A stretch of 64,000 nt of DNA, from IMG/VR virus record IMGVR_UViG_3300044699_000054, positions 1 through 64,000 of that record; one strand, given 5' to 3'. This DNA is from a virus (taxonomy: Duplodnaviria; Heunggongvirae; Uroviricota; Caudoviricetes). Positions within the stretch are counted from its first letter, which is position 1, and the number at the start of each line of letters is the position of its first letter. Position numbers: made by a program. Shown piece by piece: positions 3,001 to 6,000 of this stretch.

Positions 3001-6000
3001 ATGGGTATTTATGCTGCTCATTGGCGTGGTCCACGCTGAGTGGTTGCCTGCCCTGCCTACCATTGGATATTGGTGGGCCGTACTGATCACGTTCCTTCTA
3101 CGGGCAACACTGATGTCCGTAGACACGGACTTAGACTAACCAACGGCCGTGCCCGTGGCAACGCGGGTACGGTGCGAACATCGGGCGACGGTCGTCCGAT
3201 GTGGAGGGAGGCGTGCTATGCGCACGTTCACAGTCATTCTGACCACGGGCGAGATCATTCCCGAGGCATGTATCGTTGCGGCCAGCAATGGAGGCGACAC
3301 CGGTCTATCGTTCGGCTTTCAGTCACCAGCGGGAGTCGTGACATGGATCGATGACGAGGACATTGCCGCGCTACTCGGTACGGCCGACGCGGATACGATC
3401 GCGGTACGCCATGCTCGTGCGGTGCTCGCCGATGAAAAGCGGCAGGCACAGATCACGGCTGAGGTTGAAAGCGGCCGCATCCGGGAGCTACGCGAGGTCT
3501 GACAGTGAGCCGGTACGGGAGCGATTCCGTACCGGTGCCAATGATCGATGAGCGTACATAGACATAGCACGTAGAGAGGCCGGATACCTGCGGTGGCGCG
3601 GTGTCCGGCCGCGAGCACTGGCGACGGTCGCCCGTGTGAGAAAAGGAGAGATCATGTATGAGGCAGAGGTTCAGCGCGGCTTGGCATGGCTCAAGTCCAC
3701 TGAGGCCGCACAAGCTTTCGCGCCGGACCTGGACAGGGTCCAGCTTGACATTCTTCGGATGGAATTCCCGTGGTCATGTGTGCTGGGGCAGGCAATTGCA
3801 TCGGCAGACATCGACGGAATTGGTTACGAGTACAGTGGATATTGGCGGGTGGTACTGTCATCCTTCAATCCCTCCACAGAGGACGACGAATTCATGATCA
3901 CACATGGATTCAGGACCGATTTCGGTGGAGAGTACGGGCCACTGACCGAAGCATGGCGAGAGGCATTGACGGCAGACAGAGCCGCATCGTGAGATCCAGC
4001 CGTACCCGTGGCAACGCGGGTACGGTGCGAGACTGGCGACGGTCGCCAGTCGGAAGGGAGACAGGGATGTCGAAGAAAGTGACAAACCTCAATCCGGACG
4101 TGTGGCGGTTCCGTCACACCATGGGCGTGATCAGCGACCCCCGTGCCGACATCCGGCTAGTGCCCGGATGGTTTCACGGGCTGCAAGTCGAGATCATCGT
4201 GCACGTGTCGCGCGATGTTGACGGCCTGCACGGCTTGCCCATGGCCATACTGATCACGGCCGATTCGGACGACGCGGTTGTGATCGAGCCGCCACACACC
4301 ATCTAGCAAGGGTACGGCCGGCAGTGATGCTGGCCGTACCACAATGCCCGCGACGGTCGTGGGCAGGAAGGGAGAAACCCCCATGTCCGCAACGATCAAT
4401 TTCACCCGTACCACCGAACACTCACGCGACTTTGATTCGGTCGCTGAGCTGGTCGAATTCATCGACCACAACCGCGAGGCGCCAGGCGTCAATGGCCCGT
4501 TGCCGGAGCGCGACCAGGGAGAATCGATCGAAGACTATGTCGGTCGACTGGTCGATTACATCGATGGCAGCGTCATGGCCGCGATGATCGAAAGCGGCGC
4601 CGACGAGATGGATGAATCGTGGGAGGTAGATGAGTGGGAGGGCGAGGACGACGAGGACGACGAGTGACCGTGTAAGTGTAAGGGGTACGGCTGGCCGTGA
4701 GGCTGGCCGTACCGCCGTGTCCCGGACGGTCCGGGACCGAGAGAGGTAGCCATGGTGACGTGGTTTATCAAGTACAGGGAAGTGATCTTCTTCCTACTCG
4801 GCCTGCTTTCATCGCTGGTTGTCGCTACGGCGACGGCTTACACATCGTGGCAGCACATTGTCCACGTGGGTACAAAGGCGGGTGAGCCGGTAGCGGTATT
4901 ACTGCCCGTGGCAATCGACGGAATGATGATCAACAGCACAGTCATGGCTGCTGTCGATCGTTTCAGAAATCGAGCGACGCGAGTATGGGCCGTGATCGGG
5001 TTATGGTTGGGGTCAACTCTCACGCTCACGTTCAACGTGTCTAGCGCGTATGACCGGGGCGTCGTTGCAATGGCCATAGCCGCTGTGTACGCGGTGGCCT
5101 TGCTGGTGACGGTGGAGACCATGTTTCACCCGTCCCAACGCTGGGCGAAGGCATTTCTCGCGGCACATCGTGAGCGTGATACGTCAACCGATACTGAGTC
5201 GGTGACGGTCGCGGCCGAGAAACCAGCGCCAGTCGCTCCGACAGCCAACCGGCCGGGGCGTCGGCCCGGACCTCAGGGTAAGGCGCGCAAGCGTCGCCCA
5301 TCGGTCCAGGGCCATCCTGGCGCGGGTGAGCCGGCCGTAACCGTTGCCGCATCGGGACCGCAGGGGACAGAGGAGCAGCGCGAGCCTCAGGCAATCGAGG
5401 CCGCGCCGATCTTCCGCGAACCTGTGATCATCGATGCGGATGTCGTGGCCTGACATGATAGGGTGGATATCATGACACAGCTATCGACATTCGCCAGGGT
5501 TGCCCCTGGTCGGACCAAGTTTCAATTGGTGATCGATCAGGAGCAGCTAGACGCCGTACGTGAGTACGCGGAATCGGACGACGTGACTGCTTCCGAATGG
5601 GTCCGTCGGGTCATTGAGCGTGCCGTCCGGGCACGTGCCAAGCGGAGACCGTAGCCATGCGGCCGGTACCGGGGTTGCGCCCGGTACCGGTACCAAGCGA
5701 CAAAATATGAACCATCATGATACACTGTCTTTGTGGACCTAAGGTTCCATGAGCGCCGAGCACCAGATCAGCCTAGGACCGGTGAATAGCCCGGCGACCG
5801 TGCACCCCGAATGCGGAGGAGCGCGGGAGAGAGCGTCGGCAAGCAAGCATTGCCGATCTCGGCGTTCTTGCAGCCTTAGGTACATGGCCCGTACCCGAGC
5901 GATCGGGTACGGGCGCGAGACTGGCGACGGTCGCCGGTCGGAAGGGAGGGTCAGTGATGGCCCGAGGTAAAACGATCACGCGCGCAGCAACGGCCGCATG

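What the first reader, a model, noticed from the sequence alone, without database searches (positions are those of the whole stretch)
5451..5654. RHH DNA-binding gene whose start codon lies inside a related inverted repeat
The 63-aa ribbon-helix-helix protein (5463..5654) begins within TGACATGATA-N7-TATCATGACA. This repeat shares the ATCATGA half-site with elements A-C, and the gene ends immediately before element C. That suggests an autoregulated repressor, or an antitoxin-like regulator, controlling the three early promoters.
Basis: partly seen in the sequence, partly recalled or inferred. Interest (0 to 1): 0.55.

Follow-up and report, generated by a model that had tools for sequence, protein, structure and literature searches.

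The report
Small phage RHH regulator gene
A 60-residue ribbon-helix-helix DNA-binding protein closes an early operon of an unknown actinobacterial-type phage. It probably shuts off the phage's early promoters, which would be an ordinary role carried out by a new protein family.

Summary
The gene is real and the fold call is right. The model has pLDDT 89 with beta-alpha-alpha topology, its structural neighbours are Arc, CopG and RHH antitoxins, and synonymous changes far outnumber non-synonymous ones. The start is most likely ATG 5472 (60 aa), not GTG 5463.

The repeat is at 5451-5477 but pairs at only 9 of 10 positions. Repeats of that quality are common by chance (about 29 per shuffled window). 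Its outer half is not conserved beyond close relatives.

What is conserved in four diverged lineages is the right arm. GGTAT(C/A)ATGA at the 5' end of the RHH gene copies the extended -10 core of the early promoters. The half-site GGTATCA/TGATACC is enriched only in relatives whose RHH has K-Q-V/I on the DNA-facing strand (18 observed, 4.1 expected, against 3 and 2.9).

Best reading (inferred, about 0.45): an Arc/Aca14-like repressor, last cistron of the promoter-B operon. It would bind GGTAT-N4-ATACC palindromes at promoters A, B and C. The site at its own start would be a descendant of its own promoter-operator.

The repeat can also fold in the mRNA, which would couple RHH translation to the upstream DUF2637 gene. 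The antitoxin idea is not supported. This is a new member of a known kind.

The parts
4752..5453 (+). Upstream gene: 233-aa membrane protein (DUF2637) with a Pro/Arg-rich tail. Its stop codon TGA (5451-5453) lies in the left arm of the repeat.
   Evidence: Pfam DUF2637 E 6e-6, above the cut-off. PHROG 733 E 4.6e-7. Homologues sit directly upstream of an RHH gene in five lineages.
5451..5477 (.). Imperfect inverted repeat TGACATGATA-GGGTGGA-TATCATGACA (9/10; perfect inner 7 bp CATGATA/TATCATG). It can also be read as two degenerate copies of the promoter palindrome with centres 17 bp apart.
   Evidence: The right arm ATATCATGACAC differs from GTATCATGATAC by 2 mismatches.
5436..5494 (+). Predicted extended mRNA hairpin. 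The 3' end of the DUF2637 gene pairs with RHH codons 1-8, the weak Shine-Dalgarno GGGUGGA (5461-5467) is in the loop, and AUG 5472 is in the 3' arm.
   Evidence: the 51-nt stretch 5440-5490 folds at -18.2 kcal/mol (z -2.76), and the 91-nt stretch 5420-5510, which holds the whole hairpin, at -35.8 (z -2.16). The 27-nt repeat alone gives only -6.8 kcal/mol, z -0.76.
5472..5654 (+). RHH gene, 60 aa (MTQLSTFARVAPGRTKFQLVIDQEQLDAVREYAESDDVTASEWVRRVIERAVRARAKRRP). The alternative GTG start at 5463 would give 63 aa.
   Evidence: AF2 with a 14-sequence alignment: pLDDT 89, strands 6-11 and 14-18, helices 23-35 and 40-58. Foldseek top hits are all RHH proteins. RHH_1, NikA-like, RHH_5 and TacA1 hit family members. 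Synonymous versus non-synonymous codons: 6:1, 10:2, 14:2.
5663..5690 (+). GC-rich terminator-like hairpin that closes the transcription unit containing the RHH gene.
   Evidence: Perfect 10-bp repeat. -26.9 kcal/mol, z -2.5. There is no U-tract. A similar hairpin at 1756-1783 precedes element B.
5698..5726 (+). Element C: CGACAA (5698-5703), 17 nt, TACACT (5721-5726). The palindrome CCATCATGATAC (5712-5723) lies in the spacer and the start of the -10.
   Evidence: The palindrome sits 8 nt closer to the GACAAAAT box than in A and B. It is conserved in L001.
1807..1841 (+). Element B: CGACAA (1807-1812), 17 nt, TGG-TATCAT (-10 at 1830-1835). The perfect palindrome GTATCATGATAC (1829-1840) overlaps the -10. 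This is the presumed promoter of the operon that ends with the RHH gene.
   Evidence: (promoter scan, with TG before the -10).
245..280 (+). Element A: TGACAA (245-250), 18 nt, TGG-TATAGT (-10 at 269-274), inside the palindrome GGTATAGTGATACC (267-280).
   Evidence: Its right half TGATACCAGG equals the half-site of the perfect repeat in L022 7134-7209.

Best explanation
Gene 5472-5654 encodes a 60-aa ribbon-helix-helix DNA-binding protein. It is the last cistron of the early transcription unit that runs from promoter B (about 1830) to the hairpin at 5663-5690.

**Inferred mechanism.** As a dimer or a dimer of dimers, it would bind palindromes of the type GGTAT-N4-ATACC (half-site TGATAC). These palindromes overlap the -10 of the sigma-A-type early promoters A and B, and the spacer and -10 of C. 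Once enough protein has accumulated, early transcription, including its own, would be shut off. This is the logic of P22 Arc at Pant and of the RHH regulator Aca14 at anti-defence operons.

**The sequence around its start codon.** This holds two degenerate copies of the same site, 17 bp apart, which together make the reported inverted repeat. The conserved right-hand copy descends from the gene's own promoter-operator, which is still a separate promoter in relatives L008 and L022. In this phage it could serve as a weak autoregulatory site.

**The same repeat in the mRNA.** The upstream stop codon and the RHH AUG fall in opposite arms of a hairpin, so RHH synthesis is probably coupled to translation of the DUF2637 gene.

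**What is shown and what is inferred.** Shown: fold, gene reality, motif positions, synteny, motif co-occurrence. Inferred: DNA binding to these sites, repression, promoter activity, translational coupling.
For: - **Fold and gene reality.** AF2 pLDDT 89 with beta-alpha-alpha topology. Structural neighbours are ORF56, Arc, CopG, CopA, NikA, ParG, AmrZ and RHH antitoxins, with target TM about 0.8 and rmsd about 1.1 A. RHH_1 reaches E 2.3e-6 in family members. Purifying selection is clear.
- **Only candidate regulator.** It is the only DNA-binding domain found among about 20 early ORFs scanned with Pfam.
- **Promoter anatomy.** A, B and C share GACAAAAT(G/A)TG, a 17-18 nt spacer and a TAnnnT -10. 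In C the palindrome is shifted 8 nt relative to the -35. It therefore behaves as a module separate from the -10.
- **Extra half-sites in relatives.** These occur in promoter spacers in either orientation (L009 4237-4265, 5760-5800, 7000-7030). L022 has a perfect 11-bp repeat, CCTGGTATCAG-N6-CTGATACCAGG.
- **Conserved motif at the RHH 5' end.** GGTAT(C/A)ATGA is present in four lineages that share only 42-50% protein identity with the window RHH.
- **Co-occurrence.** The half-site 7-mer is enriched only in loci whose RHH has K-Q-V/I on the recognition strand: 18 observed against 4.1 expected. Loci with no RHH or a different strand show 3 against 2.9.
- **Precedent.** Aca14 binds an inverted repeat overlapping the -10 of its own and a neighbouring operon (PMC13551039).
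Against: - No binding or transcription data exist.
- The co-occurrence is confounded by relatedness. Only four positive and three negative lineages are available, and the negative loci cover just 6-10 kb each.
- GATAC after the -10 could be a promoter feature read by RNA polymerase rather than by a repressor.
- L012 has GGTATAGTGATAGG next to an RHH homologue whose recognition strand differs (A-T-V). This weakens the link between strand and site.
- Spacing between half-sites varies (12, 16, 17, 19 and 24 bp). That is unusual for a rigid dimer of dimers.
- The site at the RHH start has no -35 in front of it and lies 3.6 kb from promoter B. Binding there would not block initiation.
- The outer part of the repeat is not conserved outside close relatives.
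Confidence: 0.45

Rival explanations
1. The repeat acts only in the mRNA. It would be a hairpin that hides the RHH AUG and is opened by ribosomes terminating at the DUF2637 stop codon in its 5' arm, so the two proteins are made in a fixed ratio (translational coupling). It need not be a protein-binding site in DNA. This can coexist with the best explanation.
For: - The stop UGA is in the 5' arm, the weak SD GGGUGGA is in the loop and the AUG is in the 3' arm.
- The extended fold is -18.2 kcal/mol, z -2.76.
- RHH is one of the few early genes without its own GACGGTC hairpin and strong GGAAGGGAG Shine-Dalgarno.
- The two genes are 18, 10, 4 and -4 nt apart in four of five lineages.
- The start codon is also paired in the L022 fold (z -1.92).
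Against: - The 27-nt repeat alone folds weakly (-6.8 kcal/mol, z -0.76).
- The L002-type fold is not better than shuffles (z -0.93), and one variant (L019) breaks the outer stem.
- In L008 the RHH gene has its own terminator and promoter, so coupling is not universal.
- This model does not explain why the arm copies the promoter core.
Confidence: 0.3
2. The likeness to A, B and C is inherited promoter sequence, not an operator. The RHH gene ancestrally had its own leaderless promoter of the early type, TGG-TATCAT followed by 6-7 nt and then ATG, as seen in L022 and L008. In the window lineage the gene was pulled up against the DUF2637 gene. The ATG inside the old -10 box then became the start codon. 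The box is now kept because it supplies the Shine-Dalgarno GG, the spacing and the ATG. The left arm, and so the inverted repeat, would be incidental. A live internal promoter is a variant of this idea: TGA-TAGGGT at 5456-5464, then 7 nt, then A5472.
For: - L022 reads GTGGTATCAT-GAGTGC-ATG, and L008 reads terminator then GGTATAAT-GATAGCC-ATG.
- In the window and in L002 the TGn of the extended -10 is out of register or lost.
- A repeat of this quality is common by chance.
- The left arm is not conserved in L008 or L022.
- TAnnnT followed by 7 nt and ATG is present in the window (TAGGGT), L002 (TAACGT) and L008 (TATAAT).
Against: - It does not explain the palindromic right half (GACAC/GATAG) kept after the ATG.
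- It does not explain the second CATGATA copy exactly 17 bp upstream, the same spacing as the tandem units in L009 5770/5787.
- A promoter origin and operator function are not exclusive, because in A and B the operator is the promoter core.
Confidence: 0.3
3. The RHH is the DNA-binding partner of the DUF2637 membrane protein and has a role outside transcription. Examples would be tethering phage DNA at the membrane, or exclusion or spread functions as in actinomycete mobile elements. The repeat would be irrelevant, or only a coupling device.
For: - DUF2637-then-RHH synteny holds in five lineages, even where the RHH recognition strand differs (L023).
- NikA-like hits occur in 7 of 14 family members.
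- The DUF2637 protein matches a PHROG annotated as excisionase.
Against: - Two RHH homologues stand without a DUF2637 gene immediately upstream. L013 sits in a divergent regulatory region next to replication genes. L012 does too, but only 153 nt of upstream sequence is held there.
- L020/L021 keep DUF2637 without an RHH.
- No interaction evidence exists, and the motif co-occurrence is left unexplained.
Confidence: 0.1
4. The RHH is a type II antitoxin. The toxin would be the upstream membrane protein in a toxin-first arrangement, and the repeat would be the autoregulatory operator.
For: - Weak profile hits to CopG_antitoxin, RelB and TacA1.
- Structural neighbours include RHH antitoxins.
- The DUF2637 protein has faint 2TM-effector and SLATT-like hits (E 0.005-0.03).
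Against: - There is no recognisable toxin domain on either side.
- The protein ends about 10 residues after helix B, so it has no toxin-binding extension.
- Downstream lies a terminator-like hairpin and then a promoter.
- No PADLOC hit for the RHH.
- Antitoxin hits simply reflect the shared RHH fold.
Confidence: 0.04

Closest known systems
Aca14, the ribbon-helix-helix anti-CRISPR-associated regulator (Pasteurella multocida; Nucleic Acids Res 2026, PMC13551039)
   Same: A small RHH encoded in the operon it controls. In P. multocida the operon is csx20-aca14, which parallels the RHH's last-cistron position here. An inverted repeat overlaps the -10 of its own operon promoter, and the same motif sits at neighbouring promoters. 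Binding and repression of both have been shown experimentally for Aca14. Here the palindromes lie at the -10 of B, which would be its own operon, and at A and C.
   Different: The genes upstream here have no known anti-defence function. The host type is different (actinobacterial-type phage). This protein has an N-terminal beta-hairpin arm rather than the long helical extension modelled for Aca14. There is an extra site over its own start codon.
Arc repressor of Salmonella phage P22 (immI region)
   Same: A 53-aa RHH, close in size to the 60 aa here. It is among the best structural matches (1myl, 1bdv, 1par; target TM about 0.8, rmsd 1.0-1.2 A). From established knowledge, Arc is made from the promoter it represses (Pant) and turns off an early lytic transcript by binding an operator that overlaps the promoter.
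   Different: Arc is the first gene of its operon and binds one 21-bp operator as a tetramer. Here the gene is last and three or four dispersed 12-14 bp palindromes are proposed. Sequence similarity is not detectable by sequence search (phmmer against PDB found no hit).
CopG / omega / ParG plasmid RHH repressors
   Same: Same fold (1ea4, 1b01, 1p94). These are small autoregulators that bind short repeats overlapping the -10/-35. From memory, omega binds 7-bp units (WATCACW) in direct or inverted order. That resembles the TATCA(T/G) units found here in both orientations.
   Different: Those proteins control plasmid copy number or partition. Omega needs contiguous heptads, whereas here the units are separated by variable distances. 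The heptad resemblance is a lead from memory and was not tested.
Aca2 (helix-turn-helix) dual DNA/RNA control of acrIF8-aca2
   Same: In that system a repeat in the promoter DNA and hairpins in the 5' UTR are bound by one regulator, which blocks translation (cited in PMC13551039). Here the double-stranded form of the operator half-site CATGATA reappears as the stem of an mRNA hairpin over the start codon.
   Different: The fold differs (HTH versus RHH). The same paper found no conserved RNA motif for RHH Aca operons. RNA binding here is pure speculation.

Membership tests
Ribbon-helix-helix (Arc/MetJ/CopG) superfamily | N-terminal beta-strand followed by two helices (beta-alpha-alpha), with alternating hydrophobic and polar residues in the strand | tested here: met
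   AF2 with alignment: pLDDT 89, strand 14-18 (RTKFQ), helices 23-35 and 40-58, plus an extra N-terminal strand 6-11. The single-sequence model has the same topology.
Ribbon-helix-helix (Arc/MetJ/CopG) superfamily | Structural superposition on solved RHH proteins | tested here: met
   Foldseek against PDB. The top 22 hits are all RHH proteins, and RHH proteins make up nearly all of the 50 listed. Examples: 3ft7, 8u12, 1myl, 6iya, 1ea4, 1par, 2ba3, 1p94, 3qoq. Probability is up to 0.98, target TM 0.65-0.83, rmsd about 1.0-1.5 A over about 40 residues. E-values are weak (at least 0.4), as expected for a 60-residue query.
Ribbon-helix-helix (Arc/MetJ/CopG) superfamily | Significant sequence-profile match to an RHH family model | tested here: inconclusive
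   The window protein is below the cut-offs (CopG_antitoxin E 0.027, DUF6290 E 0.025). Homologues at 42-46% identity hit RHH_1 (best E 2.3e-6, 6 of 14), NikA-like (7 of 14), RHH_5 and TacA1.
Ribbon-helix-helix (Arc/MetJ/CopG) superfamily | Dimer with an antiparallel two-stranded sheet inserted in the major groove, and specific binding to repeated DNA sites | not testable with these tools
   No multimer or DNA-complex modelling and no experiment was possible. The candidate sites are inferred.
Aca-type regulator (Aca14-like) | Inverted repeat overlapping the -10 of its own operon promoter, with the same motif at neighbouring operon promoters | tested here: met
   GTATCATGATAC overlaps TATCAT of B. 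GGTATAGTGATACC overlaps TATAGT of A. CCATCATGATAC lies in the spacer and -10 of C. The promoters themselves are predicted, not mapped.
Aca-type regulator (Aca14-like) | Co-encoded with anti-CRISPR or other anti-defence genes | tested here: inconclusive
   The operon's other products (2007-5453) have no Pfam or PHROG function apart from DUF2637. No anti-defence library was available.
Aca-type regulator (Aca14-like) | Sequence homology to Aca14 (WP_005725436.1) | not tested
Type II toxin-antitoxin RHH antitoxin (CopG/RelB/VapB/TacA type) | Adjacent cognate toxin gene in the same operon | tested here: not met
   Upstream is a DUF2637 membrane protein. Downstream is a hairpin and then promoter C. 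There is no toxin family hit in Pfam, NCBIfam or PADLOC.
Type II toxin-antitoxin RHH antitoxin (CopG/RelB/VapB/TacA type) | C-terminal extension beyond the RHH domain that binds the toxin | tested here: not met
   Helix B ends at residue 58 of 60.

The most novel reading that the evidence does not exclude
The RHH could be a dual DNA/RNA regulator. It would recognise the duplex CATGATA/TATCATG both as DNA, at the -10 of the early promoters, and as the stem of the hairpin over its own start codon in the mRNA. Transcriptional shut-off and translational autoregulation would then use one recognition surface, as shown for the helix-turn-helix protein Aca2 but never for an RHH protein.
Probability: 0.06. 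Interest if true: 0.6.

Novelty: new member of a known kind. Interest (0 to 1): 0.3.

Why it matters
If correct, this gives the regulatory switch of a phage group with almost no relatives in reference collections. DNA and RHH-protein searches against 50,697 phage records found nothing, and the capsid is at most 41% identical to any known one. Three host-type early promoters would be tied to one tiny repressor, with a defined 12-14 bp site to test.

It would also add an actinobacterial-type example to the recently recognised class of RHH regulators that shut off early or anti-defence operons. That would flag the small unknown genes between promoters A and C and the RHH gene as candidates for host-takeover or anti-defence functions.

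The principle itself, a small RHH repressor acting on promoter-overlapping palindromes, is textbook.

Tried and rejected
**Searches that found nothing**
- Megablast of 4700-6300 against phage records: no match.
- tblastn of the RHH and of the DUF2637 protein against phage records: no match.
- Scan of viral contigs with the RHH: nothing confirmed.
- phmmer of the RHH against PDB sequences: no hit.
- Rfam on 1-13000: only a sub-threshold chance hit.
- ARAGORN on the window and four loci: no tRNA.
- The giant ORF against PDB, Pfam and phage records: nothing useful.

**Searches with limited or misleading results**
- A profile of the RHH family against PDB gave designed helical repeats first and RHH antitoxins only at E about 0.6.
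- The metagenome scan with an RHH alignment returned only lineages already in hand. A first attempt failed because no stretch was conserved enough.

**Ideas rejected or left open**
- TATCAT at 5468-5473 is not an active promoter for the RHH. A start about 7 nt downstream would lie inside the ORF with no start codon.
- The other ATCATGAT or near-palindrome hits (8265, 20002, 31578, 34370) are not regulatory sites. They lie in coding sequence or lack the promoter context.
- Invariance of the 35-nt junction among L002-type variants proves little. Other equally long invariant stretches exist.
- A literature search for DUF2637 gave nothing useful.
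Full report
**1. The observation**

- The string TGACATGATA-GGGTGGA-TATCATGACA is at 5451-5477.
- It is not a perfect inverted repeat. Position 5453 faces 5475 as A.A, so the arms are 9/10 complementary, with a perfect inner 7 bp (CATGATA/TATCATG).
- Repeats with 10-nt arms, at most 1 mismatch and a spacer of at most 12 were counted in the window and in 15 first-order Markov shuffles. The shuffles average 29 hits, so a repeat of this quality is not remarkable in itself.
- The window's own 170 hits are mostly the nested hairpins of the early region.
- The more specific event is that the word shared with the promoter elements occurs twice in inverted order within 25 nt. This happened in 5 of 2000 shuffles, but the test was chosen after the fact.
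- TATCATG alone is not enriched (10 observed, 6.4 expected). TATCATGA is enriched (7 observed, 1.4 expected).
- The ORF 5463..5654 exists.
- The stop codon of the preceding gene (4752..5453) lies in the left arm.
- ATCATGA is shared with elements B and C but not A (GTATAGTGATAC).
- Between the RHH stop (5654) and element C lies a strong hairpin at 5663-5690 (-26.9 kcal/mol).

**2. The gene and its product**

- A word-indexed search of 5.8 billion proteins found only two close homologues. A full HMMER scan and a profile search raised the family to about 15 members at 42-98% identity.
- All close members start MT..., which corresponds to ATG 5472. The product is therefore most likely 60 aa.
- Synonymous changes greatly outnumber non-synonymous ones between variants: 6:1, 10:2 and 14:2 codons. 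It is a real gene.
- The window protein scores below Pfam cut-offs (CopG_antitoxin E 0.027). Family members hit RHH_1 (E 2.3e-6), NikA-like, RHH_5, TacA1 and DUF6290.
- AlphaFold2 with the 14-sequence alignment gives pLDDT 89. It shows strand 14-18, helices 23-35 and 40-58, and an extra N-terminal strand 6-11.
- Foldseek against the PDB returns RHH proteins for the first 22 hits and for nearly all 50 listed. These include ORF56 of pRN1, Rv0298, Arc, CopA, CopG, NikA, ParG, AmrZ and VapB, with target TM about 0.8 and rmsd about 1.1 A.
- The fold call is confirmed.
- By the alternation of hydrophobic residues in TKFQLVID, the DNA-facing residues should be K16, Q18 and V20. This is an inference by analogy with Arc.

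**3. Context**

- The window is a novel siphovirus-like genome of actinobacterial type.
  - The tape measure and a 577-aa major capsid protein are recognisable.
  - The best capsid match is 41% identity to Actinoplanes phage phiAsp2.
  - There is no DNA match in 50,697 phage records.
- Positions 1 to about 10 kb hold some 20 small plus-strand genes.
- Three sites look like sigma-A promoters:
  - A: TGACAA, 18 nt, TGG-TATAGT (245-274)
  - B: CGACAA, 17 nt, TGG-TATCAT (1807-1835)
  - C: CGACAA, 17 nt, TACACT (5698-5726)
- All three share the box GACAAAAT(G/A)TG.
- In A and B a palindrome of the form GGTAT-N4-ATAC(C) is centred on the -10. In C the same palindrome lies 8 nt nearer the -35, in the spacer. 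The palindrome therefore behaves as a module separable from the -10.
- B and C each follow a GC-rich hairpin (1756-1783, 5663-5690). The RHH gene is thus the last cistron of the unit that starts at B.
- No other DNA-binding domain was found among the early ORFs scanned with Pfam.

**4. Relatives**

The DUF2637 gene is followed by an RHH gene in five diverged lineages.

| Lineage | Arrangement |
|---|---|
| Window type (L001, L017) | 18-nt gap |
| L002 type (L002-L011, L016, L018, L019) | 10-nt gap |
| L022 | 4-nt gap; RHH gene not called, 4824-5015 |
| L023 | ATGA overlap; different recognition strand, Q-T-I |
| L008 | RHH has its own terminator and promoter |

- L020/L021 keep the DUF2637 gene without an RHH.
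- Two further homologues (L012, L013) have no DUF2637 gene immediately upstream. They carry their own, different inverted repeats upstream, and L013 lies in a divergent regulatory region. L012 starts only 153 nt before its RHH gene.
- The sequence at the 5' end of the RHH gene in the four K-Q-V lineages:
  - window: GTGGATATCATGACAC
  - L002 type: GTAGGTATCATGACAGC
  - L008: AGGTATAATGATAGCCATG
  - L022: GTGGTATCATGAGTGCATG
- The conserved part is therefore the right arm of the reported repeat, and it equals the extended -10 core of the early promoters (B: TGGTATCATGATAC).
- In L008 and L022 it has the geometry of a leaderless promoter, with a -10, then 6-7 nt, then ATG.
- In the window and in L002 the ATG inside the box is the start codon, and the TGn is out of register or lost.
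- The left arm is shared only within the window lineage. The L002 type has a weaker counterpart, GCTGATATG.

**5. Link between the RHH and the promoter palindrome**

- Relatives carry extra copies of the half-site in promoter spacers, in direct or inverted order:
  - L009: TTGACAgcATGCTGATACtcgtggtATGCTGATAGC
  - L009: TTGCACcagcGGTATCAGtatgatataCTGATACC
  - L009: TTGCGTATCAGCAT...ATGCTGATAGC
- L022 has a perfect 11-bp repeat, CCTGGTATCAG-N6-CTGATACCAGG. Its half-site equals the right half of window element A (TGATACCAGG).
- Duplicated, orientation-independent units are what a repressor site looks like. They are not what RNA polymerase needs.
- The 7-mer GGTATCA/TGATACC is enriched in loci that encode a K-Q-V/I RHH: 18 observed against 4.1 expected in window 1-13000, L009, L016 and L022.
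- It is not enriched in loci with no RHH or another recognition strand: 3 against 2.9 in L020, L021, L023, L012 and L013.
- This is suggestive, but it is confounded by relatedness and small numbers.
- One counter-example is L012, which has GGTATAGTGATAGG beside an RHH with strand A-T-V.

**6. The repeat as RNA**

- In the mRNA the repeat extends to a 59-nt hairpin (5436-5494). UGA is in the 5' arm, the weak Shine-Dalgarno GGGUGGA is in the loop, and AUG is in the 3' arm.
- The 51-nt stretch 5440-5490 folds at -18.2 kcal/mol, z -2.76. The core alone is weak (-6.8 kcal/mol).
- L022 also pairs its start codon (z -1.92). The L002-type fold is not significant (z -0.93).
- RHH is one of the few early genes without the GACGGTC hairpin and strong Shine-Dalgarno that precede its neighbours.
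- With gene spacings of 18, 10, 4 and -4 nt, translational coupling to the DUF2637 gene is plausible. It is compatible with the repressor model.

**7. Verdict**

- The protein is an RHH DNA-binding protein (about 0.95).
- That it represses the early promoters through the TGATAC palindromes is the best-supported mechanism (about 0.45). It matches known systems: P22 Arc, and closely the RHH regulator Aca14. Aca14 binds a repeat over the -10 of its own and a neighbouring operon (PMC13551039).
- The 27-bp repeat itself is probably not a dedicated operator. It is best seen as a descendant of the gene's own promoter-operator plus a second degenerate copy 17 bp upstream. That spacing matches the tandem units in L009. 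The repeat may also work as an mRNA hairpin.
- The antitoxin reading fails two defining tests: there is no toxin partner and no C-terminal extension.
- Novelty: a new, very sparsely populated sequence family doing a known kind of job.

Noticed in passing
window 282-9389, plus strand (e.g. 2313-2337, 4031-4051, 5919-5939, 6665-6685): Nearly every early gene is preceded, 8-15 nt before a strong GGAAGGGAG Shine-Dalgarno, by a stem-loop with an invariant top GACGGTC (3-nt loop CGG) and a variable, covarying lower stem. Nineteen copies lie on the plus strand between 608 and 9384; the whole window has 28 against 12 expected. The same element (GGACGGTCC or CGACGGTCG) precedes early genes in L009, L016, L020 and L008. 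It could be an RNA processing or stability site, like the RNase III sites of T7 early mRNA, or a hairpin promoter. Its function is unknown.
   Followed up: partly
window 1756-1783, 2283-2308, 2867-2894, 4000-4025, 5887-5914, 6633-6660 and others: A second family of GC-rich hairpins (CCGTACCCG-loop-CGGGTACGG and variants) without U-tracts sits just upstream of each GACGGTC hairpin. Each early gene is thus a cassette of hairpin, hairpin, Shine-Dalgarno and ORF. Whether these hairpins terminate transcription or protect 3' ends decides how far transcripts from A, B and C reach.
   Followed up: no
window 55037-63997, minus strand (runs off the window end): An ORF of at least 2986 aa lies next to the major capsid gene. 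It has no Pfam, PDB-sequence or meaningful phage-record match. The only hits are PHROG 3162 (unknown function) at residues 1561-1658 and a 7% match to Micromonospora phage pMLP1.
   Followed up: partly
window 6697-7590, plus strand: A 297-aa ORF built largely of a 15-nt (5-residue) periodic repeat, (D/N)G(F/Y)(D/N)R-like, giving long runs of DGYN/EGFD units. There is a weak zinc-ribbon hit near the N-terminus.
   Followed up: no
window 5727-5950: The roughly 220 nt downstream of promoter C has no convincing ORF. It is replaced by unrelated sequence in the otherwise 93%-identical contig L001, so this is a mosaic boundary right after the promoter. It could be a leader or a small RNA. There is no Rfam hit.
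   Followed up: partly
window 1788-1797 and 5691-5700: The box TACCAAGCGA lies between the upstream hairpin and the -35 in both B and C, but not in A. In L001 it is deleted at C.
   Followed up: no
window 2687-3139, plus strand: One ORF reads straight through an intergenic hairpin pair (2867-2921) into what looks like a separate small membrane-protein gene (ATG 2936, with its own Shine-Dalgarno). This may be a missing stop codon or a read-through arrangement.
   Followed up: no
window 12000-14500: GC skew flips sharply here (-0.21). A 474-aa proline-rich ORF (13114-14538) of doubtful coding value overlaps this stretch. The early plus-strand block ends near here.
   Followed up: no
L022 4824-5015: An RHH homologue (MSNYSRVADGKTKLQYVL...) was not called as a gene in the source contig. 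It lies 4 nt after the DUF2637 stop, behind TGGTATCAT, 6 nt and ATG.
   Followed up: yes
L020 161-7940 (intergenic regions): In this RHH-less relative almost every intergenic region starts with (C)TTGACAGTGCGGCCGGTGCC. That is a -35-like TTGACA fused to the first hairpin, and it may be a different promoter or regulatory scheme in the same phage group.
   Followed up: no
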